From assembly GCF_053078305.1 (NCBI RefSeq), contig NZ_CP166879.1: a stretch of DNA of 64,000 bases. One strand, 5' to 3'. The notes below the pieces were generated by a model. The model searched no databases, was not told the origin of the DNA, and was given only the letters and a program-made list of their open reading frames with translations. Shown here one piece after another: positions 20,261 to 29,166 of this stretch. How positions within the stretch are numbered: position 1 is the stretch's first letter; every line of letters starts with the position of its first letter. The translations under genes were made by a program, and so were the position numbers.

Positions 20261-21853
20261 TTATTTATTGGTGAGTACTACGTTCCATGGCAAGAGTTCA
20301 TCAACTCGGTTGGAAGGCCATTCCGGCAGTACGCTCAGGATATGGCGCAGATACGCTTCCGGATCGATACCGTTCAGACGGCAGGTGCCGATCAGCCCGT
20401 ACAACAGTGCTCCACGCTCGCCGCCGTGATCGCTGCCAAAGAACATAAAGTTTTTCTTTCCGAGACAGACTGCACGAAGCGCTCTTTCCGCAGCATTATT
20501 ATCCGCCTCCGCCAGACCGTCATCACTGTAATAACAGAGGGCATCCCACTGATTCAGTACATAGCTGAACGCTTCGCCCAGTCTGGATTTTTTCGACAGC
20601 GTACCATTCTTCTCCACCATCCATTCATGCAGCGACGTCAGTAACACTTTGCTTCGCTGCTGCCTGACGGAAAGACGCTCTGACTCCGGTAATCCCCGTA
20701 TTTCATCCTCGATGGCGTACAGTTCACTGATTCGCTTCAGGGCTTCTTCTGCCTTCGCACTTTTGCTGCTGATGTATACATCGTGGATTTTTCGCCGGGC
20801 ATGGGCCCAGCACGCAACTTCTGTCAGTGCACCACCTTCACGTTCTGCACTGAACAACCTGTCGTAACCTGTGAACGCATCCGCCTGCAGGATACCCCGG
20901 AAGGGGCGGAGGTGTTGCTCCGGGTGTTTCCCCTGCCGGTTCGGCGAGTACGCGAACCAGACCGCTGGAGGAGATGACGAACCCACATTGCGATCATCCC
21001 GGACATACGTCCAGATACGCCCTGTTTTCGCCTTTTTCTGACCCGGTGCCAGTACCTTTACCGGTGTGTCATCAGTGTGAACCTTGCGGGTGTTCATTAC
21101 ATAACGGTACAGGGCATCATTCACCGGTGTCATTAACTGGCAGCACGCGTCAACCCAGTTGGAGAGTAAGGCCCGGCTCAGTTCGACACCCTTGCGGGCA
21201 AAGATTTCACTCTGACGATACAGTGGCAGATGTTCGCAGTATTTTCCCGTTAACACGCGGGCAAGTAATCCGGGGCCCGCGATACCACGCTCTATCGGGC
21301 GGGACGGCGCCGGTGCTTCAACGATGCAGTCACATTTTGTACAGGCTTTTTTTACCCGTTCTGTGCGGATCACTTTCAGGGCGCTGCTCACCAGTTCCAG
21401 TTGTTCTGCACTGACTTCCCCCAGATAATCCAGCTCACCGCCACACTCCGGGCAACAGCTTTCTTCAGACTCCAGACGGTGTATTTCACGGGGAAGGTGT
21501 GCCGGTAACGGACGACGATGGCGCGACTGTCGCAACTGGCGGGGAACCTGTGGATCGTCTTCCCGCCCACTGTAACGATCGCTGTCCTGTTCGCGTTGTT
21601 TCAGCAGGGCCTCAGCCTGTTCAACTTCACGACGCAGTTTTTCAGAACGGGTACCGAACAGCATCCGGCGCAGTTTTTCTATCTGAGCCCGCAGATGTTC
21701 TATTTCCCGTTCATCTTCTTCGATCTTTTCTTCGGCACGTGCCAGTGCAGAGCGCAGGAAGGCCTCCGTCTCTTCAACCAGACTCAGTTGCTGGTCTTTC
21801 TGACGGAGCTGGCTTTCCAGTTCTGCAATGCGAATGAGGTATTTCTGACTCAT
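20261..21853 (-). CDS. IS66-family transposase (TnpC / Orf3)
   Basis: 530 aa; N-terminal coiled-coil/leucine zipper and zinc-finger-like CxxC pairs (CPECG, CTKCDC) typical of IS66 transposases. Confidence 0.9.
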   Translation of the reverse strand: MSQKYLIRIAELESQLRQKDQQLSLVEETEAFLRSALARAEEKIEEDEREIEHLRAQIEKLRRMLFGTRSEKLRREVEQAEALLKQREQDSDRYSGREDDPQVPRQLRQSRHRRPLPAHLPREIHRLESEESCCPECGGELDYLGEVSAEQLELVSSALKVIRTERVKKACTKCDCIVEAPAPSRPIERGIAGPGLLARVLTGKYCEHLPLYRQSEIFARKGVELSRALLSNWVDACCQLMTPVNDALYRYVMNTRKVHTDDTPVKVLAPGQKKAKTGRIWTYVRDDRNVGSSSPPAVWFAYSPNRQGKHPEQHLRPFRGILQADAFTGYDRLFSAEREGGALTEVACWAHARRKIHDVYISSKSAKAEEALKRISELYAIEDEIRGLPESERLSVRQQRSKVLLTSLHEWMVEKNGTLSKKSRLGEAFSYVLNQWDALCYYSDDGLAEADNNAAERALRAVCLGKKNFMFFGSDHGGERGALLYGLIGTCRLNGIDPEAYLRHILSVLPEWPSNRVDELLPWNVVLTNK

Positions 21854-21883
21854 GACCGTTTTTATAATGCGGTCAGGATTTTT

Positions 21884-22234
21884 TTACAACATTGTCAGTG
21901 AGTTACGGCGGGATGTTTTTGGCTGACGCCAGTCCAGCTTATCGAGGAGCATTGCCAGTTGCGAGCGGGTAATGGATACCTTGCCGTCACGTACCGCAGG
22001 CCAGATAAACTGGCCTTCCTCCAGGCGTTTAGTGAACAGGCACAGACCATCAGCATCAGCCCAAAGAATTTTAACGGTGTCACCCCGTCGGCCACGGAAG
22101 ATAAACAGGTGACCGGAGAAGGGATTATCATTCAGCACATGTTGTACCTGTTCTCCCAGTCCGTTGAAGGATTTACGCATATCGGTAACGCCGGCAACGA
22201 GCCAGATACGGGTACCTGATGGGAGTGAGATCAT
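21884..22234 (-). CDS. IS66-family Orf2 (TnpB) accessory protein
   Basis: 116 aa, MISLPSGTRIWLVAGVTDMRKSFNGL...; overlaps orf1 by 4 nt. Confidence 0.9.
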   Translation of the reverse strand: MISLPSGTRIWLVAGVTDMRKSFNGLGEQVQHVLNDNPFSGHLFIFRGRRGDTVKILWADADGLCLFTKRLEEGQFIWPAVRDGKVSITRSQLAMLLDKLDWRQPKTSRRNSLTML

Positions 22235-22656
22235 CTTCCCCTCCCGGTCAGTTCACGGATCAACACCGTGAGCAGCTCTGGCGATGGATTTTCCAGCGTC
22301 ATGTTACCGTGACGGAATTCCACCTTGCAGGAGCTGGCACTGACTCTGGTCTGAGAGGTAGTGGATAAAGATGGCGCAATGGCCACCACAGGTTCTTTCT
22401 GCTCATCCGGCGTTATTTCTACAGGTAATAATTCAACGCCAGTGTCAGAAGAGGTCGTTACCGGAAGACGCCGCGAAACACGCCCTTCGTTCTGCCAGAG
22501 CCTGAGCCATTTGAACAGGAGGTTATCATTGATATCGTGTTCCCGGGCGATACGGGCAACAGAGGCTCCTGGTTGCAAAGCCAGTTTAACCATTTGAAGT
22601 TTAAAATTATTTGAAAATGATCTGCGGGGTTCTGCGGATAATGTTTTTTGCTCCAT
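22231..22656 (-). CDS. IS66-family Orf1 (TnpA) accessory protein
   Basis: 141 aa, MEQKTLSAEPRRSFSNNFKLQMVKLALQPGASVARIAREHDINDNLLFKW... Confidence 0.85.
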   Translation of the reverse strand: MEQKTLSAEPRRSFSNNFKLQMVKLALQPGASVARIAREHDINDNLLFKWLRLWQNEGRVSRRLPVTTSSDTGVELLPVEITPDEQKEPVVAIAPSLSTTSQTRVSASSCKVEFRHGNMTLENPSPELLTVLIRELTGRGR

Positions 22657-22708
22657 AACAGGCGTCCACTAGTTTGAAAAGGTGGGCACCTACGTTACCA
22701 ATACTGGC

Positions 22709-23003
22709 TTAATGGCTACATACGGCAGTCGGTTTACGCTTACCTTTGATCAGCCAGAGCCTGAGCCATTTGAACAGAAGATTATCATTGATATCATGCT
22801 CCCGGGCAATACGGGCAACAAAAACCCTTGGTTGTAAAGCCAGTTTAACCATTTGAAGTTTAAACTCATTTGAAAATGACCTGCGGGGTTCTGCGGATAA
22901 TGTTTTTTGTTCCATAACAGGCATCCACTAGTTTGAAAAGGTGGGCACCTACGTTACCAATACTGGCTTAATGGCTACATACGACGGTCGGTTTACGCTT
23001 ACC
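22709..23003 (-). mobile_element. Partial tandem duplicate of the IS66 end (5' part of orf1 plus terminal repeat)
   Basis: Sequence 22925-23003 nearly repeats 22657-22745; ORF 22709..22924 encodes a truncated Orf1 copy (MPVMEQKTLSAEPRRSFSNEFKLQMVKLALQP...). Confidence 0.7.
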
Positions 23004-23045
23004 AGAAAACTAATAGTGCTATATGCAATTTTTAATATTCAGACT

Positions 23046-25727
23046 TTAGCCTGACAGGCCTGACAAAAACGCGCCCAACTTCCCTTCTATATCACTGTCT
23101 ATAGTACGTAATCTTAGCAATGGCAGACCACATTTCTTCAGTATACTGTTTTTAAGTTCATCACGTTCAGCCTGGACACTGGTCAGATGATAGCCTCCAT
23201 CCACTTCAATAACCCCTAATGGAGTCTTCCCGACCTTATAGTAAACAACAAAGTCACAACTGGCCCGATTACGCATGAATAACAGTTCACGGTGAGTAAA
23301 ATCTCCCCGCTCCAGCAACACCAACTGATTCAGCGCTATTTGTGAATGAAACATCATGCTCCGATAACTATCCTGCGACAGGATATCCCGCAACAGGCAG
23401 GCCACAATCTGTTCTGACTTAAAGCGTGAATCATCTGAATTCAATCTACTATTCAGTCGTTCCAGTGATTTGTCATACTCACTGTACAGCAAATCAAATG
23501 CTGATATCACCGGGCTCTCGAAAATCTCTCCGTCATCAGCGTAGTATCTGATGTAACGAATCAGTGCCGCAATATGTCCAGCGTGGCGTTCAAATACATC
23601 ATTACCAGTCACCAACGTAAATTTGTTTCGGGCCCTTGAAACAGCGACATTCACCAGTTCAGGATTATCAACAAACGCGATATTCCGACTTTGCTGGCTG
23701 CTGCGTTTCTTATCCAGCACAGTGGAAAACACAATTTCATCGCACTCCCGTCCCTGAAATTTATGCACCGTCGATTTCACAAAATCAGCGGGCAGCACTG
23801 TTTCAGCCAGATTAACCTGTGCATTATATGGGGCGATATATCCCCTGCTACTTTCCTCATCCCAGTAATGTCCTTCCAGAGATTCAAGCTCCCTGAGATT
23901 TGAAAAATTACGGGTATGGTTTCCTTTTGCCGTGATGATCAGAGATAATGAGGCTTCACCTGAATCAAGCGTTAGCGGTATCAGAGCATTATCATAAAAC
24001 TGCTTATTACAAAATTGAATGATTTTAGGATGACAGCGATAATGCTCTTTAAGAAGAGTTACTGGCACCATATTCCTGAACGACATACAAACCGAATCAA
24101 GTAGACTATATTTCTCACAATTATAGTATTCTGCCGGTGGAGATGGGCTGTTCGGGAGTAATACAGGAACATGTGGAAGTTGCTTTCGATCCCCTACAAC
24201 GATTACATTACGGGCACATCCTAGTCCCAGAATGCCCGGAACAATATCCTGCTGTGAGGCTTCATCAATAATCACATAATCAAGAAGAGCCCCCTTACCG
24301 ATAGAGTTAATAATAGAATGCGTGCTGCTACCAATAACCGGAAAACGCTTTATAAAACGGTTAAATTCATCCCTGTATGTCTCTGCCGAGAATGAATTTC
24401 TTGTTGAAATATTTCTTCGCAGATGTTGTTTTAAATAAAGCACAGACCATGATGTCAGGCGCTCCAGTAAAATTTTAAAATCAGATTCCTTTAATACTTT
24501 CTCATATTCATTCAAAGAAATTTGTTTTTCCCGGATGGATTTTTCATAATAAGAAAGCTGAAGAGAAGTAAATAGTGCCAGCCTTCTCTCCGGAATCACC
24601 AATGGTTTGACTTTCAGTATCCTGAAGTTTAACAACAAATCAATTCTGTTTCTGAATCCAATCCGCCTGTCAGAAAGGTAATGAATATAAGCCATCAGGT
24701 CAGTTGTTTTTCGTGAGGAAAGTCGGTATTTGTGAGAAAAAAGCTCCTCCGGTCGAAGATTCTGACTCTGCCATTGCTGCAGGTATTTATACTCAACACT
24801 CAGTTCATTAATTTCTGCTTTTAACGAAGCAACCTGGTTGATAGCATTCAGGTGTTTTTTCACTTGTTGAAGTACATCATCAATCATATTTGCAGACGGT
24901 GAGTCAGGTAAGACTTCCTCAGAACGCGAAATCGACGTTGAAAAAAACTGTTGTCTGTTCTCCGTACTTCCCAGTCGTGCCACCACATATCCCAGTCGTT
25001 GTTTGTCCATTTTTTCATAAACATTACTGACAGCTGAGTTATTATTGGACAAAATTGCCACTGTTTTATTCTGAATTAATATATTGGCAACAATATTGAG
25101 AATAGTCTGTGTTTTACCTGTCCCAGGTGGTCCTTCAATAACTGAAATCTGTGAGGAAAATGCCCGTTCAACCGCCATTAACTGACTCTCATTCAGGCCA
25201 AACGGAAAAATCAACCCCCATGGCGAATCACGTTTTTTACTCTGTCCTGAACAGTATGCATGCAAGGCGGTATCCGGATGAGGAACTATTTTCTTTATCT
25301 GTCTGAGGATATTCTCATCGATATTTTTATTATTACCTCGAGCATAAAAAACACGTTCGTCAGCCACCCTGCACAAGTAATTAAACACGGCATGCTCTGT
25401 AAATGCTGAACACTGTTGAAAGTCAAGTCCGGTCGTTTTCATGATGTAGGGTCGTTCGCTCTCACGGTAATAAACAGCAGCATATTTATCACCATAGATA
25501 ATAACCCGTTCAGCCCGGGATGTTACAGCGTTCCCTTTCCTTTCGAGGAAAACATTTCGCAAAATTACAGTTGGCGTTATCTGACATACAGAAAGCGGAC
25601 GAGTATATTTTTTCCCGCTGCGAAAATGACAGGTCAGCATAACCTCTCCGTCATCATTTCCAGCCCACAGAGTCCAGTCGGTAATTTTATGAGTCTTATT
25701 TTCACCGTCAACACAAATCGTGACCAT
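23046..25727 (-). CDS. Superfamily-1 helicase fused to a C-terminal PD-(D/E)xK (DUF2726-like) nuclease domain; candidate defence protein
   Basis: 893 aa; Walker A GPPGTGKTQT, Walker B/motif II VIIDEASQ, further SF1 Upf1/DNA2-like motifs (VGDRKQLPHV, HYRCHPKIIQF, STVHKFQGRECD, VAVSRARNKF); C-terminal VIEVDGGYH...ERDELK...GLPLLRL; N-terminal ~180 aa unassigned. Confidence 0.75.
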   Translation of the reverse strand: MVTICVDGENKTHKITDWTLWAGNDDGEVMLTCHFRSGKKYTRPLSVCQITPTVILRNVFLERKGNAVTSRAERVIIYGDKYAAVYYRESERPYIMKTTGLDFQQCSAFTEHAVFNYLCRVADERVFYARGNNKNIDENILRQIKKIVPHPDTALHAYCSGQSKKRDSPWGLIFPFGLNESQLMAVERAFSSQISVIEGPPGTGKTQTILNIVANILIQNKTVAILSNNNSAVSNVYEKMDKQRLGYVVARLGSTENRQQFFSTSISRSEEVLPDSPSANMIDDVLQQVKKHLNAINQVASLKAEINELSVEYKYLQQWQSQNLRPEELFSHKYRLSSRKTTDLMAYIHYLSDRRIGFRNRIDLLLNFRILKVKPLVIPERRLALFTSLQLSYYEKSIREKQISLNEYEKVLKESDFKILLERLTSWSVLYLKQHLRRNISTRNSFSAETYRDEFNRFIKRFPVIGSSTHSIINSIGKGALLDYVIIDEASQQDIVPGILGLGCARNVIVVGDRKQLPHVPVLLPNSPSPPAEYYNCEKYSLLDSVCMSFRNMVPVTLLKEHYRCHPKIIQFCNKQFYDNALIPLTLDSGEASLSLIITAKGNHTRNFSNLRELESLEGHYWDEESSRGYIAPYNAQVNLAETVLPADFVKSTVHKFQGRECDEIVFSTVLDKKRSSQQSRNIAFVDNPELVNVAVSRARNKFTLVTGNDVFERHAGHIAALIRYIRYYADDGEIFESPVISAFDLLYSEYDKSLERLNSRLNSDDSRFKSEQIVACLLRDILSQDSYRSMMFHSQIALNQLVLLERGDFTHRELLFMRNRASCDFVVYYKVGKTPLGVIEVDGGYHLTSVQAERDELKNSILKKCGLPLLRLRTIDSDIEGKLGAFLSGLSG

Positions 25728-26235
25728 ATTCTCACTCAGTAATTATCATTTAACTTACGGAAAATTGTTATGAAACTCCCGATATTTACCCGGTAAAATA
25801 CTTGTCATTGTTTGAAGCCCTCCCTAAAAAATGACCAGGCATTTGATAACCCGGTGTATTTCTCCCGATATGAGCTCCGGAGGATTTTCCACAACTCCGG
25901 GTGTGTTAACATATTCCCGCCGGCCATATATACATTGAGTTCAGTCATAACAGTCAATACCAGGATTACAGGAACGCGATGCTGATACGCTGGTTATTGA
26001 ATACTGGTAGCCCCTAACTACTAATTCATCACGATACTCTGTACTTACTGTTTTTTACAACCATTCCCCCAGGTAAAAGAGTCCATTTATCATGCCCCTC
26101 TTTAACGCCTGCCAGCATAATTTAAGAATGGATACCGTGGGTGGAATTAACAATACCTGCTCAGGCCAATGCCATGTAACCGCCTCACTGAAAAAGCCAG
26201 ATCATCTAACCAGGTACAGACCAACATCGCAAAAA

Positions 26236-26385
26236 TTACCATGTAGCACGAACTGCTGTCATATTTCTGTTCAGGTATGCCGCTATTTCGCGGGTTTTCT
26301 TCACGCCATAATGCGTTTCAAGGTAGCGAACATCTTCGATTGTCCATGGTGTGCGCGCTCTTCCGGGGGTATTTTCCATTTCCAT
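26236..26385 (-). CDS. Small hypothetical protein (49 aa), possible DNA-binding protein; below the ORF-track length cutoff
   Basis: Own translation of the minus strand: MEMENTPGRARTPWTIEDVRYLETHYGVKKTREIAAYLNRNMTAVRATW; starts 15 nt downstream of the vasL-like stop; no homology support. Confidence 0.3.
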   Translation of the reverse strand: MEMENTPGRARTPWTIEDVRYLETHYGVKKTREIAAYLNRNMTAVRATW

Positions 26386-26400
26386 GTTTTATCTCAGCCA

Positions 26401-27765
26401 TTATGGCTGCCTCTCCTGATTGCCTGTGTGTTCCATCTGATAACGATTAATCAGCTGATTCAGTGCCATTTCAGCCTGTTTTTGCTGCTGTTCACTGCCA
26501 TTCTGATTACGGGCTTCATCATAGCGACGTAACTGCTCTTCTGCCGGGATATGCCGGTTAAAAGCCTGCATGATGCCAAACACCTCCGTTTTCAGTTCAC
26601 TGACCGTCATGTATTTTCCCCGCTGTTCATCCAGACGGTTCAGGCGCTCAGCCAGCTGCTGTAAGCGGGTCATGCCTTCGTTCCAGCCCGTCATCGCCTC
26701 TTCCGGAAGCGCTCGGCTCCTTACGCTCTTCTGCCAGTTATCCACCATTTCCTGAACACGGGGATTGTCGGGGAAAAGTCCCCTCAGTTGCTGCAGCAGC
26801 TGCGCACTGCGTTGCAGGTTGTATGCCGGCGGTAGTTCTGTCAGTCGCGTTATCTGCTGACCGGAAAGGGTTATCCACTCTGACGCATGATTTAACAGTG
26901 AGGGTGTTCTGCTGAGTTGCGCCATCTGGTCTGCTGAAAGCACATCCGGTAGTGGTGCCAGCAGCGCCCTGAGTTGCTGCTCCGCCGATGATGGCTGTGT
27001 CAGAAACTGCCATCCCGGAATGACCACGCTGACAGTCAGCAATGCCGCACAGACACCAGCCACAAACGGTTTCAGAAACGTGGGCGGGGATTTCTGAAGG
27101 GAGGGTGTGGGTTCTGCTTTTGTTTCAGAAACAACATACACCAGACGGGAGTACGGCAGGGGCTGATGTTCCTGTACATCCGGAGCATCAGACCGGAGTG
27201 CCTGAGCCGGAAGGGTTACCGGCGACGATACTTCACCCTGCACAGGCTGATTCTCCAGACGGGTGATATATCCCTTCACCATGGCTTCCGGTAAAGCCAC
27301 TTTACTGCTCTGTTTAAGTTCATGCCGGGCCAGTATGTCACTCAGCGTTTTCAGGCATGTTTCTGTCTGATACAGCAGGGGCAGATTGTCACGCTCATCC
27401 GGTGGCATGGCCCGGAGCGTTTTTTGCAGACGACTGAACAGACCGGTAATAATTTCCAGCCGGGCGTGGGTATTCAGCGGCCACATCACTGACCAGTGAT
27501 GCCGGGTCAGCGCCACAATCAGAGCCAGCCCTTCATTCAGACCACTTAACCCTGCTGTATGCATCCGGGCGATGGTGTACCAGGATACCGTCTGTAATTC
27601 CACGCCATTGTGTTCATACAGACGCAGGCAGAGCGTCTCCACATAACGCCAGTCCACATCCGGACGTGCCGGGTGAGTCAGCTTGCTGATTTCATCGCGC
27701 AGGGCAGCATAATCCGGTAATGACCGGGGGTCATTACCTGTTTTCAGTTTTACTTCAGAAGTCAT
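26401..27765 (-). CDS. T6SS-associated ImpA_N-domain membrane protein (VasL-like)
   Basis: 454 aa; N-terminal domain resembles the TssA N-terminus (DYAALRDEISKL...VSWYTIARMH versus TssA ...ATWYIWARL...) followed by one TM segment and a periplasmic region. Confidence 0.65.
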   Translation of the reverse strand: MTSEVKLKTGNDPRSLPDYAALRDEISKLTHPARPDVDWRYVETLCLRLYEHNGVELQTVSWYTIARMHTAGLSGLNEGLALIVALTRHHWSVMWPLNTHARLEIITGLFSRLQKTLRAMPPDERDNLPLLYQTETCLKTLSDILARHELKQSSKVALPEAMVKGYITRLENQPVQGEVSSPVTLPAQALRSDAPDVQEHQPLPYSRLVYVVSETKAEPTPSLQKSPPTFLKPFVAGVCAALLTVSVVIPGWQFLTQPSSAEQQLRALLAPLPDVLSADQMAQLSRTPSLLNHASEWITLSGQQITRLTELPPAYNLQRSAQLLQQLRGLFPDNPRVQEMVDNWQKSVRSRALPEEAMTGWNEGMTRLQQLAERLNRLDEQRGKYMTVSELKTEVFGIMQAFNRHIPAEEQLRRYDEARNQNGSEQQQKQAEMALNQLINRYQMEHTGNQERQP

Positions 27766-28177: not shown

Positions 28178-28627
28178 TCACCCCCTGAAAGTCATCACAT
28201 TATCCACAAACTGCTGTTGCTTCAGATATCGCAGTAACACCCTGCCCTCCGGCATAAAAGTTGTTCCGTAACGAACCAGTCCTGCATCTTTAAGTTCTGC
28301 ATCAATGACATAATGCAACTCACCAGGCTGAGTCTGTTCCTGCATCGTCACCCCGACACGCTTAATACGTGGCTCATACTTCAGCAGAACATCTGAAAGC
28401 ACACACATCAGTTGATGCGCCGTTCCCGGCATTCCCTGCAGAATGCTTGTCATATCCGGCAGACCATAATCCGGAAGATGTTTAAGGCTTCCGGCCCGGG
28501 TATTCAGAATACGCTGCATGTTATCGAGCACCGAAAGAATAACCTGCTCTTCCTCACTGACCTGGTTTAACTCCAGCCCGCCAGCGAAATTGCCATAGAG
28601 AATTTCATAAAGGGAAGGACGCGGCAT
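28178..28627 (-). CDS. tssE: T6SS baseplate component TssE (gp25-like)
   Basis: 149 aa from the internal ATG (ORF-track start is an upstream GTG); conserved SVLDNMQRILNTR...DYGLPD region. Confidence 0.8.
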   Translation of the reverse strand: MPRPSLYEILYGNFAGGLELNQVSEEEQVILSVLDNMQRILNTRAGSLKHLPDYGLPDMTSILQGMPGTAHQLMCVLSDVLLKYEPRIKRVGVTMQEQTQPGELHYVIDAELKDAGLVRYGTTFMPEGRVLLRYLKQQQFVDNVMTFRG

Positions 28628-28629
28628 CA

Positions 28630-29166
28630 CTATTTATCCTTCACCGGTAACAGCGTCAGGGTGTTACCGGATACTTCAATAAGACGGGGCGTGTCCGGCT
28701 CAAGCTCATCCCGGCTCAGCACCACCCGCCAGGTATTTTTCTTCCGGTCAGGCTCCAGAAACATTGCTGCCACACCGGTAAATTTCGCCGCATCATCCAG
28801 AGGCATATCCACGGCCACTGAACCACCTGGCTGCAGCCATACATCTTTCTGTGCAATGATATCGCCTGCCAGAATTTCACTGTCCCCCGTAAAAAGCGCC
28901 TGATAATCCGCGCTGTCAAAATTCCGGTTGTCTTTAAGCTGATAAATCCGCACCACAACCGACAGGGGAATACCGGCAGCACTGGTGTTAATGGCCTCCC
29001 TGGCACGAATATCAAGGTGAAGTGTTTTTATCTGTCGGTAAAACAGGGATTTCGTGGCAGATACCGTACCGTCTGCCACTCTTTGCGTCAGGCCACACCC
29101 TGATAACGACAGGGAAAACAACGCAATAATCAGACCGTAACCAGTCTTACCAGCGATAATCGCCAT
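28630..29166 (-). CDS. tssJ: T6SS outer membrane lipoprotein TssJ
   Basis: 178 aa; lipobox LSLSGC; size and operon position typical. Confidence 0.8.
   Translation of the reverse strand: MAIIAGKTGYGLIIALFSLSLSGCGLTQRVADGTVSATKSLFYRQIKTLHLDIRAREAINTSAAGIPLSVVVRIYQLKDNRNFDSADYQALFTGDSEILAGDIIAQKDVWLQPGGSVAVDMPLDDAAKFTGVAAMFLEPDRKKNTWRVVLSRDELEPDTPRLIEVSGNTLTLLPVKDK

What the first reader, a model, noticed from the sequence alone, without database searches (positions are those of the whole stretch)
23046..25727. Stand-alone helicase-nuclease fusion gene wedged between IS66 and the T6SS: candidate antiphage defence gene
One 893-aa protein combines an unassigned N-terminal domain, a complete SF1 Upf1/DNA2-like helicase core and a C-terminal DUF2726-like PD-(D/E)xK nuclease fold (VIEVDGGYH...ERDELK...GLPLLRL). 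This architecture recalls single-gene nuclease-helicase defence proteins (Nhi-like or Hhe-like), but the domain order and N-terminal domain do not match one I can name. It sits alone in a mobile-element hotspot.
Basis: partly seen in the sequence, partly recalled or inferred. Interest (0 to 1): 0.75.

Follow-up and report, generated by a model that had tools for sequence, protein, structure and literature searches.

The report
Uncharacterised single-gene helicase-nuclease, likely defence
An intact 893-residue E. coli gene fuses a Upf1-type helicase to a Vsr-type DNA-cutting domain; its family occurs in several bacterial phyla and in 12% of E. coli genomes, no database or paper searched names it, and it is most likely an untested anti-phage or anti-mobile-DNA enzyme.

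Summary

The same three-part, roughly 900-aa architecture recurs in Proteobacteria, Firmicutes, Actinobacteria, Bacteroidota and others. All helicase and nuclease catalytic residues are at least 90% conserved, and the N-domain is the most variable part.

No neighbouring gene is conserved across 81 loci, so the gene is a single-gene unit. It is accessory: present in 641 of 5426 complete E. coli genomes, AT-rich, flanked by IS elements, and sitting in islands. In a random sample, 13 of 50 nearest neighbours hit known defence families.

It fails membership of Hhe, Nhi, Mokosh, ProA, PDC-S37 and CoCoNuT CnuH. No paper in the library describes it. The closest functional analogue is Hna, which is built on an unrelated helicase.

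Verdict: a plausible but unproven stand-alone defence helicase-nuclease, and a new variant of a known kind. In E. coli the gene is nearly always next to ibrAB; the window's isolation was created by IS66.

The parts
23046..25727 (-). Complete gene, 893 codons plus stop: N-domain, SF1B helicase, Vsr-like nuclease
25413..25727 (-). Residues 1-105: all-beta N-terminal domain, probably two small SH3/Sm-like barrels. It is family-specific and the least conserved part of the protein.
25197..25412 (-). Residues 106-177: helical hairpin (111-146) and linker leading into the PFGxNxSQxxA (Q-type) motif
   Evidence: Y117, L155, Y158, P175, F176, N179, S181, Q182 at least 90% conserved
24933..25196 (-). 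Residues 178-265: first part of RecA1, with Walker A GPPGTGKT (residues 199-206, nt 25110-25133)
24378..24920 (-). Residues 270-450: long alpha-helical (coiled-coil-like) insertion in RecA1. The same feature is described for CnuH helicases.
24168..24377 (-). Residues 451-520: second part of RecA1, with Walker B/motif II IIDEASQ (D488 E489, nt 24255-24266) and motif III VGDRKQL
23538..24167 (-). Residues 521-730: RecA2, with motif IV EHYRCHP (561-567), motif V TVHKFQGRE (653-661) and motif VI NVAVSRA (693-699)
   Evidence: Pfam AAA_12; conservation. The AF2 model is unreliable here, with pLDDT below 50.
23358..23537 (-). Residues 731-790: helical linker carrying the conserved SxFDLLYxxY motif (742-751)
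23049..23357 (-). Residues 791-893: DUF2726/Vsr-like (EDxHD-type) PD-(D/E)xK endonuclease. D825, E841, D843, H847, D856, K859 and R872 are at least 90% conserved (E841-H847 = nt 23187-23207).
25742..25771 (-). Sigma-70-like promoter candidate (ATAACA-18-GATAAT), 15-45 nt upstream of the ATG. A consensus match only.
23024..26078 (.). The 3.05-kb segment shared by all E. coli contexts of the gene: the gene plus 22 bp downstream and 351 bp upstream. Outside it the flanks differ between strains.
22484..23001 (.). Two tandem 259-nt copies (92% identical) of an IS66 end with the start of tnpA. They mark a complete IS66 lying beside an older IS66 remnant, 45 bp from the gene's stop codon.

Best explanation
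This is a self-contained, horizontally mobile immune enzyme directed against phage or other invading DNA.

Shown: it has an intact SF1B Upf1-type motor and an intact Vsr/EDxHD-type endonuclease on one chain; both active sites are under strong purifying selection; it has no obligate partner gene; and its distribution is accessory and island-borne, often beside known defence genes.

Inferred: the motor loads on single-stranded nucleic acid and moves 5'->3', which is the polarity of Upf1-like SF1B helicases. The likely substrates are phage replication or recombination intermediates. ATP-driven translocation is coupled to cutting by the C-terminal nuclease.

Also inferred: the fast-evolving N-terminal beta-barrel domain and the coiled-coil insertion set specificity or keep the enzyme auto-inhibited (for example as a dimer) until a phage-derived cue releases it. 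This is by analogy with Hna, Nhi and Hachiman, where phage SSB proteins or damaged DNA act as triggers.
For: Architecture and folds.

Active-site conservation: catalytic residues of the helicase and the nuclease are at least 90% conserved in 76 sequences from several phyla, while the N-domain averages 0.33 column identity.

Single-gene unit: the largest neighbour cluster is a LysR regulator found in 9 of 80 loci.

Accessory status: present in 641 of 5426 E. coli genomes; GC 0.40-0.44 against 0.50-0.55 in the flanks; at least three different E. coli flanks, with IS elements; integrase or transposase genes beside the copies in Cedecea and Serratia.

Defence neighbours: 13 of 50 randomly sampled nearest neighbours hit PADLOC families. 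These include full-length PD-Lambda-4_A and SoFic, plus Dsr1, a type I MTase, a DpdE/ZorD-like protein, PDC-S15 and HNH. Binomial p is 7.5e-7 against an assumed 5% background.

Helicase affinity to defence helicases: the best PADLOC and NCBIfam partial hits are to MkoA/MkoC, PDC-S37, Hhe and ProA.

Precedent: single-chain helicase-then-nuclease defence is documented for Hna (PMC13381803).
Against: No experiment exists for any family member. No paper in the library mentions this architecture.

The protein is not recognised as a whole by PADLOC 2.0 or by NCBIfam anti-phage models.

Neighbourhood enrichment is not significant against the internal control: 13 of 50 versus 2 of 20 ORFs lying at least 7 kb away, Fisher p 0.12. 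Half of the first 20 neighbours are ordinary metabolic genes.

Several copies sit among housekeeping genes with no visible island.

Substrate (DNA or RNA), polarity, trigger and outcome (abortive or direct) are all inferred.
Confidence: 0.55

Rival explanations
1. The gene is a weapon in conflicts between mobile elements, not a phage defence proper. It would be island-borne and degrade incoming plasmids, ICEs or competing islands, or help maintain its own island.
For: It always lies in variable regions with IS, integrase or transposase remnants. It occupies the same hotspot next to the ape/T6SS clusters in E. coli, Salmonella and Cedecea. The PD-(D/E)xK survey notes that DUF2726 proteins in Fusobacteria are surrounded by mobile elements (PMC3424549).
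Against: No linked integrase, relaxase or replication gene is conserved. Many copies have no adjacent mobile-element genes. The gene is rare on plasmids: 3 E. coli records, at least two of which look like chromosome-sized misassignments.
Confidence: 0.13
2. It is an accessory DNA repair, recombination or replication helicase-nuclease, working like Dna2 or like Vsr-type nicking at lesions, with no immune role.
For: Dna2 is among the best structural and sequence matches. Vsr itself is a repair endonuclease. Some copies sit among housekeeping genes, for example beside uvrC in Methylobacillus.
Against: The distribution is patchy: 12% of E. coli genomes. The gene shows atypical GC, no synteny and many insertion sites. 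A hypervariable N-domain is unusual for a repair enzyme. There are defence genes next door.
Confidence: 0.1
3. It targets RNA or RNA:DNA hybrids. In this reading it is a bacterial Upf1/Senataxin-style surveillance helicase that acts on phage transcripts or R-loops, as predicted for the related CnuH helicases of CoCoNuT systems.
For: The closest solved relatives are RNA helicases: IGHMBP2, Upf1 and Sen1/SETX. The top PADLOC hits are the Mokosh helicases MkoA and MkoC. CnuH shares the coiled-coil insertion and, in type III-B, a fused Vsr-like nuclease (PMC11090510).
Against: Characterised Vsr-like/EDxHD nucleases (Vsr, I-Bth0305I) cut DNA. Upf1-like helicases also act on ssDNA, as Dna2 and IGHMBP2 do. 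No RNA-binding domain was detected.
Confidence: 0.1
4. In E. coli it is the restriction-like arm of a module with IbrA (PAPS-reductase-like) and IbrB (ParB-like). The window copy would then be an orphan left after IS66 removed its partners.
For: The helicase-ibrA junction is present in up to 623 genomes, against 641 that carry the gene. All genes of the module are on the same strand.
Against: ibrA and ibrB are absent from all 81 non-E. coli loci and from the 79-82% identical Salmonella, Cedecea and Edwardsiella copies. The gene stays intact and 99.8% conserved without ibrAB. A gap of about 500 bp separates the two genes. Linkage may simply reflect descent of one island.
Confidence: 0.07

Closest known systems
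Hna (helicase-nuclease abortive infection; Sinorhizobium meliloti, 845 aa)
   Same: It is a single-gene defence protein of similar size with the same order of parts: an N-terminal helicase motor and a C-terminal PD-(D/E)xK nuclease. Its documented mechanism is an ATP-bound auto-inhibited dimer released by a phage SSB (PMC13381803). This is the best model for how the window protein might work.
   Different: The Hna motor is an SF2 DinG/XPD-like helicase with 3'-5' exonuclease action. The window protein has an SF1B Upf1-like motor (expected 5'->3') and a Vsr/EDxHD-type nuclease. It also has an extra N-terminal beta-domain and a coiled-coil insertion. The two are analogous, not homologous.
Hhe (Gao et al. 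2020; DUF4011 + Upf1-like helicase + Vsr-like MTES_1575 nuclease + DUF3320)
   Same: It is a single protein with the same helicase superfamily (AAA_11/AAA_12), followed by a Vsr-clan nuclease. It has been validated as a defence protein (my own knowledge of Gao et al. 2020).
   Different: Hhe is about twice as long: the profiles are 1797-1911 positions. The window protein scores 74.8 bits against a cut-off of 2000, and the best-reported stretches lie in the helicase core. It has no DUF4011 or DUF3320, and its nuclease is of the DUF2726 type (MTES_1575 E-value only 0.075).
CnuH of type III-B CoCoNuT systems (predicted only)
   Same: It is a Upf1-like SF1 helicase with a large helical or coiled-coil insertion after Walker A, a small N-terminal nucleic-acid-binding domain, and a fused Vsr-like nuclease (PMC11090510).
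   Different: CnuH is encoded with McrBC-like CnuB/CnuC and CnuA. The window family has no conserved partner. The CnuH N-domain is a wHTH, whereas here it is a beta-barrel domain. Direct sequence comparison was not possible because no CnuH sequence was available.
Nhi (nuclease-helicase immunity, Staphylococcus)
   Same: It is a single-chain nuclease plus Upf1-like SF1 helicase that defends against phages. Phage SSB is implicated in its triggering, as summarised in PMC13381803.
   Different: The domain order is opposite, with the nuclease at the N-terminus (my own knowledge). There is no hit to the PADLOC Nhi model at E<=0.01.
Mokosh MkoA / MkoC
   Same: These are the best PADLOC matches (4e-43 and 2e-41) over the helicase core.
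   Different: The matches cover only part of profiles that are 1112-1136 positions long. The Mokosh effector is a PLD nuclease (my own knowledge), which is absent here.
Eukaryotic Upf1 / IGHMBP2 / Sen1 / Dna2 helicases
   Different: Only 16-20% identity. The Dna2 nuclease is N-terminal and of a different PD-(D/E)xK family. The accessory domains differ, and the biological setting differs (core eukaryotic genes versus a bacterial accessory gene).

Membership tests
SF1B Upf1/Dna2-like helicases | Q-type LNxSQxxA motif, Walker A GxxGxGKT, DExx, motifs III-VI, and two RecA-like domains | tested here: met
SF1B Upf1/Dna2-like helicases | 5'->3' translocation on a single-stranded nucleic acid | not testable with these tools
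   Inferred from family membership only.
DUF2726 / Vsr-like (EDxHD) PD-(D/E)xK nucleases | Vsr-type fold with a D...ExD-x3-H...D catalytic constellation | tested here: met
Hhe | Full-length match to the Hhe model (NCBIfam equivalog cut-off 2000 bits), with DUF4011 and DUF3320 present | tested here: not met
   74.8 bits. The PADLOC Hhe hit has its best stretch at residues 180-260. No DUF4011 or DUF3320 in Pfam.
Nhi | Match to the Nhi model, with the nuclease N-terminal to the helicase | tested here: not met
   No Nhi hit at E<=0.01. The nuclease here is C-terminal.
Mokosh (MkoA+MkoB, or MkoC) | Full-length MkoA or MkoC match, plus a PLD nuclease either as a partner or fused | tested here: not met
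   Only partial helicase-core matches. No PLD domain. No conserved partner.
ProA / PLuB / PDC-S37 / PDC-S68 | Whole-protein score above the family cut-off, or full profile coverage | tested here: not met
   ProA 111 bits against a cut-off of 1500; PLuB 62 bits against 999. The PDC-S37 match covers profile positions 297-427 of 1550.
CoCoNuT type III-B (CnuH) | Operon with McrB-like CnuB, McrC-like CnuC and the coiled-coil protein CnuA | tested here: not met
   The window flanks are IS66 and T6SS genes. No conserved neighbour in 81 loci.
CoCoNuT type III-B (CnuH) | Sequence clustering with CnuH helicases | not tested
Hna | SF2 DinG/XPD-like helicase domains | tested here: not met
   The helicase is SF1B. 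Hna architecture is taken from PMC13381803.
Anti-phage defence system (generic) | Reduces phage plating efficiency when expressed in a naive host | not testable with these tools
   Only contextual evidence is available.

The most novel reading that the evidence does not exclude
The family is a pan-bacterial, single-chain counterpart of eukaryotic Upf1/Senataxin-type surveillance. In this reading a 5'->3' motor patrols RNA or R-loop/ssDNA intermediates made by invading elements. Its family-specific N-terminal beta-barrel domain reads a phage cue and unleashes the Vsr-type nuclease. That would be a mechanistically new immune sensor, not just another helicase-nuclease.
Probability: 0.12. Interest if true: 0.8.

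Novelty: new variant of a known kind. Interest (0 to 1): 0.45.

Why it matters
If the gene protects against phages, it would add a compact one-gene system (about 2.7 kb, with its own promoter region) to the defence repertoire. The family is found in several phyla and in roughly one in eight E. coli genomes, including EHEC O26 and O103 lineages, and current annotation tools miss it.

It would also be the SF1B/Vsr counterpart of the SF2/PD-(D/E)xK enzyme Hna. That would allow a direct comparison of how two unrelated motors are wired to a nuclease for immunity.

The N-terminal domain has no relatives outside the family and would be a new candidate sensing or regulatory module.

If the gene does not protect, it is simply one more uncharacterised accessory helicase.

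Tried and rejected
1. Looking for a named system. PADLOC, NCBIfam and PHROGs gave only partial helicase-core hits.

2. Literature. Eight of the nine searches looked for this architecture (DUF2726, PF10881, PF13086/PF13087, AAA_11/AAA_12, Upf1-like with anti-phage, Vsr-like with helicase, Hhe/DUF4011) and found no description of it. The ninth retrieved the Hna papers.

3. Assigning the N-domain.
- A profile search of 1.84 billion representative proteins returned only the same family and fragments of it.
- Foldseek against AFDB50 found only the same family, then weak SH3b matches.
- A PDB sequence profile found nothing below E 0.1.
- Pfam on 29 diverse N-domains gave only one KTSC hit at 1.8e-3. 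I kept this as a weak lead, not a result.

4. A conserved partner gene. ORF clustering over 81 loci found none.

5. An ibrAB partnership. It is real in E. coli but absent everywhere else, so I rejected it as a family feature.

6. Phage or plasmid origin. There is no full-length phage copy and only 3 E. coli 'plasmid' records.

7. Modification-dependent (type IV) restriction through a PUA/SRA-like reader domain. No structural support was found.

8. The full-length AF2 model built from 30 sequences left RecA2 (residues 514-768) unmodelled. It was used only for RecA1, the insertion and the nuclease.
Full report
OBSERVATION

Pfam finds AAA_11 (residues 178-518, 2.7e-21), AAA_12 (542-583 and 625-707, 1.3e-13) and DUF2726 (813-879, 6e-12). 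It finds nothing significant for residues 1-177. The gene is AT-rich, with GC 0.40-0.44 against 0.50-0.55 in the flanks. On one side lies a complete IS66 (TnpC 20261-21853, TnpB 21884-22234, TnpA 22231-22656) followed by a truncated second TnpA (22709-22924). On the other side lies a type VI secretion cluster (TssA-like 26401-27765, TssE 28178-28630). The window is E. coli; the best match is strain 04-00955 at 99.8% identity.

ANATOMY

A 30-sequence alignment at 56-83% identity and a 76-sequence alignment spanning several phyla show that every SF1 helicase motif is at least 90% conserved:
- the PFGxNxSQxxA Q-type motif (175-185);
- Walker A GPPGTGKTQT (199-208);
- D488 E489;
- G512 D513 Q516;
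- E561-P567 (EHYRCHP);
- T653-E661;
- N693-A699.

The nuclease constellation is conserved to the same degree: D825 F826, E841 V842 D843 G844 H847, R855 D856 K859, R872 T875.

Between Walker A and Walker B lies a helical insertion of about 180 residues, with long helices at 279-323 and 379-439. The CoCoNuT study describes the same feature for CnuH helicases (PMC11090510).

THE N-TERMINAL DOMAIN

Iterated HMM searches show that the beta-domain is nevertheless homologous in all 74 full-length family ORFs recovered. In three of them most of the region corresponding to residues about 50-105 is missing. It is the least conserved part of the protein: mean column identity 0.33, against 0.7-0.8 around the motor motifs. 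It is therefore a family-specific, fast-evolving domain made of small barrels. Whether it is a sensor, or this family's equivalent of the Upf1 1B barrel and stalk, remains open.

DISTRIBUTION AND CONTEXT

The word-indexed search found 3703 relatives. The top 120 are mostly 890-910 aa (a few are shorter, truncated entries), and nearly all carry the same Pfam domains. They come from Gamma-, Beta- and Alphaproteobacteria.

A scan of one genome per GTDB species returned 78 loci with the same roughly 860-1000-aa protein. They come from Proteobacteria, Firmicutes, Actinobacteria, Bacteroidota, Chlorobi and Desulfobulbia. Clustering all ORFs within 10 kb of the gene in 81 loci gave no conserved neighbour. 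The largest cluster is a LysR regulator in 9 loci, followed by GMP synthase, ABC ATPases and PheST. Pfam-annotated contexts from Methylobacillus, Pseudomonas, Serratia, Salmonella, Cedecea and Edwardsiella agree with this. The gene is a single-gene unit.

It is rare on plasmids and has no full-length copy in 50,697 phage records.

In E. coli it occurs in 641 of 5426 complete genomes, in at least three settings:
- next to the T6SS with an IS66 remnant;
- next to the T6SS with ibrA-ibrB-perC;
- in EHEC O26/O103-type islands between a POTRA gene and ibrA-ibrB-perC.

The segment common to all settings is window 23024-26078. The Salmonella Newport copy sits beside the same aryl-polyene cluster, and the Cedecea copy sits at the end of a T6SS cluster beside integrase remnants. 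The hotspot is therefore shared across Enterobacterales.

THE ibrAB LINK

A 901-nt probe across the junction between the helicase 3' end and ibrA is covered at 80% or more in 623 genomes. One caveat applies: 80% coverage could just be reached without the helicase part of the probe. In E. coli, then, the gene is almost always followed by ibrA (PAPS-reductase-like) and ibrB (ParB-like). The window is one of the exceptions, where IS66 has replaced that flank.

However, tblastn with IbrA and IbrB finds nothing in any of the non-E. coli loci. The 79-82% identical Salmonella, Cedecea and Edwardsiella copies also lack them. I treat the link as island-level co-inheritance. I give 0.07 to the alternative that it is a functional module.

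DEFENCE ASSOCIATION

I sampled 50 nearest neighbours of at least 180 aa at random. Of the first 20, ten were ordinary metabolic or regulatory genes by NCBIfam. The other ten, and the remaining 30, were scanned with PADLOC. Thirteen of the 50 hit defence families at E<=1e-8:
- strong hits: PD-Lambda-4_A (full length, directly downstream in Alkalimonas), SoFic (full length), Dsr1, a type I methyltransferase, a DpdE/ZorD-like SNF2 helicase, PDC-S15 and HNH;
- weaker hits: AbiLii, mad2, PDC-S04, PDC-S68/RecD-like, an effector endonuclease and DpdF.

A control of 20 ORFs lying 7-10 kb away gave 2 hits (mad3 and DrmD). Both were in loci whose near neighbour is also a defence gene. Thirteen of 50 is far above an assumed 2-5% genomic background (binomial p<1e-6). 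It is not significantly above the distal control (Fisher one-sided p 0.12). The association is supportive but not decisive.

COMPARISON WITH KNOWN SYSTEMS

PADLOC hits are partial, and their best-reported stretches lie in the helicase core: MkoA 4e-43, MkoC 2e-41, PDC-S37 7e-36, Hhe 7e-17. NCBIfam scores are far below the cut-offs: IGHMBP2 family 144 bits against 349, ProA 111 against 1500, Hhe 75 against 2000, PLuB 62 against 999. There is no hit to the Nhi model.

Hhe has the same order of parts, a Upf1-like helicase followed by a Vsr-clan nuclease. It is twice the size and carries DUF4011 and DUF3320, which are absent here.

The type III-B CoCoNuT helicase CnuH has a small N-terminal domain, a Upf1-like motor with a coiled-coil insertion and a fused Vsr-like nuclease. 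This is the nearest described architecture, but it is embedded in an McrBC-like operon.

Hna (845 aa) has an SF2 DinG-like motor and a C-terminal PD-(D/E)xK nuclease. It forms an ATP-bound auto-inhibited dimer that is activated by a phage SSB. It is the best-understood functional analogue, but it is not homologous.

No paper in the library describes a DUF2726-helicase protein.

MECHANISM

Shown:
- an intact motor and an intact nuclease on one chain, both conserved across phyla;
- no obligate partner gene;
- accessory, island-borne and horizontally spread;
- frequent defence neighbours.

Inferred, from the behaviour of Upf1-like SF1B helicases and of Vsr/EDxHD nucleases:
- 5'->3' translocation on single-stranded nucleic acid, coupled to endonucleolytic cutting of DNA;
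- the variable N-domain and the coiled-coil govern target choice or auto-inhibition;
- a phage-derived trigger, such as replication intermediates or an SSB, by analogy with Hna, Nhi and Hachiman.

I put 0.55 on a phage or foreign-DNA defence role. The rivals are conflict between mobile elements (0.13), accessory repair (0.10), RNA or R-loop surveillance (0.10) and an E. coli-specific IbrAB module (0.07).

VERDICT

The finding is real and the reading is reasonable. The protein is not a member of any named system, and the family is unstudied. That makes it a new variant of the known helicase-plus-nuclease single-protein defence theme, not a new kind of thing.

Interest is moderate (0.45). The gene is readily testable, widespread, and missed by the PADLOC 2.0 and NCBIfam anti-phage models. 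Its function, though, is unproven, and a specialist would not be surprised by it.

Noticed in passing
window 22484-23001: Two tandem 259-nt copies (92% identical) of an IS66 end with the start of tnpA. A complete IS66 (20261-22656) lies directly beside an older, truncated IS66 copy (TnpA remnant 22709-22924). The closest genome has only the remnant.
   Followed up: partly
L002 9668-11522 and L007 7628-9483 (E. coli E2865 and strain 1105); absent from the window: In up to 623 of the 641 E. coli genomes that carry the gene, ibrA (PAPS-reductase-like), ibrB (ParB-like) and perC lie directly downstream on the same strand. In the window IS66 replaces them. ibrAB are absent next to every non-E. coli homologue examined.
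   Followed up: yes
window 26236-26400 (- strand): A short ORF between the T6SS and the helicase gene, annotated as a 54-aa hypothetical protein in the closest genome. It contains a 'PWTIEDVRYLETHYG...EIAAYLNR' helix-turn-helix-like stretch. It shows weak similarity (40% over 37 aa, E 3e-5) to the 181-aa sigma-70-region-4-like protein directly upstream of the Cedecea homologue (L087 6346-6925).
   Followed up: partly
window 26401-27765 (- strand): A 454-aa ORF at the end of the T6SS cluster. Only its first 195 residues or so match TssA/ImpA-N (82 bits against a cut-off of 230). The closest genomes annotate this stretch as VasL and ImpA-N pseudogene fragments. It is probably a deletion-derived fusion, which would mean this end of the T6SS cluster is decayed.
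   Followed up: partly
L086 (Salmonella Newport) and L087 (Cedecea davisae): The 81-82% identical homologues occupy the same hotspot as in the window: beside the aryl-polyene (ape) cluster in Salmonella, and at the end of a T6SS cluster in Cedecea. In Salmonella the gene directly upstream encodes a LAGLIDADG_3 protein, and a NERD+UvrD helicase gene lies 6 kb away. In Cedecea a T5orf172 (GIY-YIG-like) gene and integrase remnants flank the gene.
   Followed up: no
L009 12795-16616 (Alkalimonas amylolytica): A full-length PD-Lambda-4_A homologue (1274 aa, 1013 bits) lies 110 bp downstream of the family member, and a mad3-like fragment lies 9 kb upstream. This looks like a defence island.
   Followed up: no
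L038, L059, L068, L080, L085: In five Firmicutes loci, a DUF2075/Schlafen-like ATPase (about 620 aa) and a small MazG-like pyrophosphatase (about 106 aa) recur within a few kb of the family member. This may be another defence-type pair.
   Followed up: no
plasmid records CP061244.1 (1.41 Mb) and NZ_CP124741.1 (E. coli O157:H7 EDL933, 287 kb): The few 'plasmid' records carrying the gene are implausibly large for E. coli plasmids. They are probably chromosomal fragments labelled as plasmids, so plasmid carriage of the gene is doubtful.
   Followed up: no
NZ_CP147099.1 (hit H10): In one E. coli genome an IS3 element splits the gene into a 'DEAD/DEAH box helicase' part and a 'DUF2726' part. Truncated 540-722-aa variants are also common in the protein cluster. 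The gene is sometimes inactivated.
   Followed up: no
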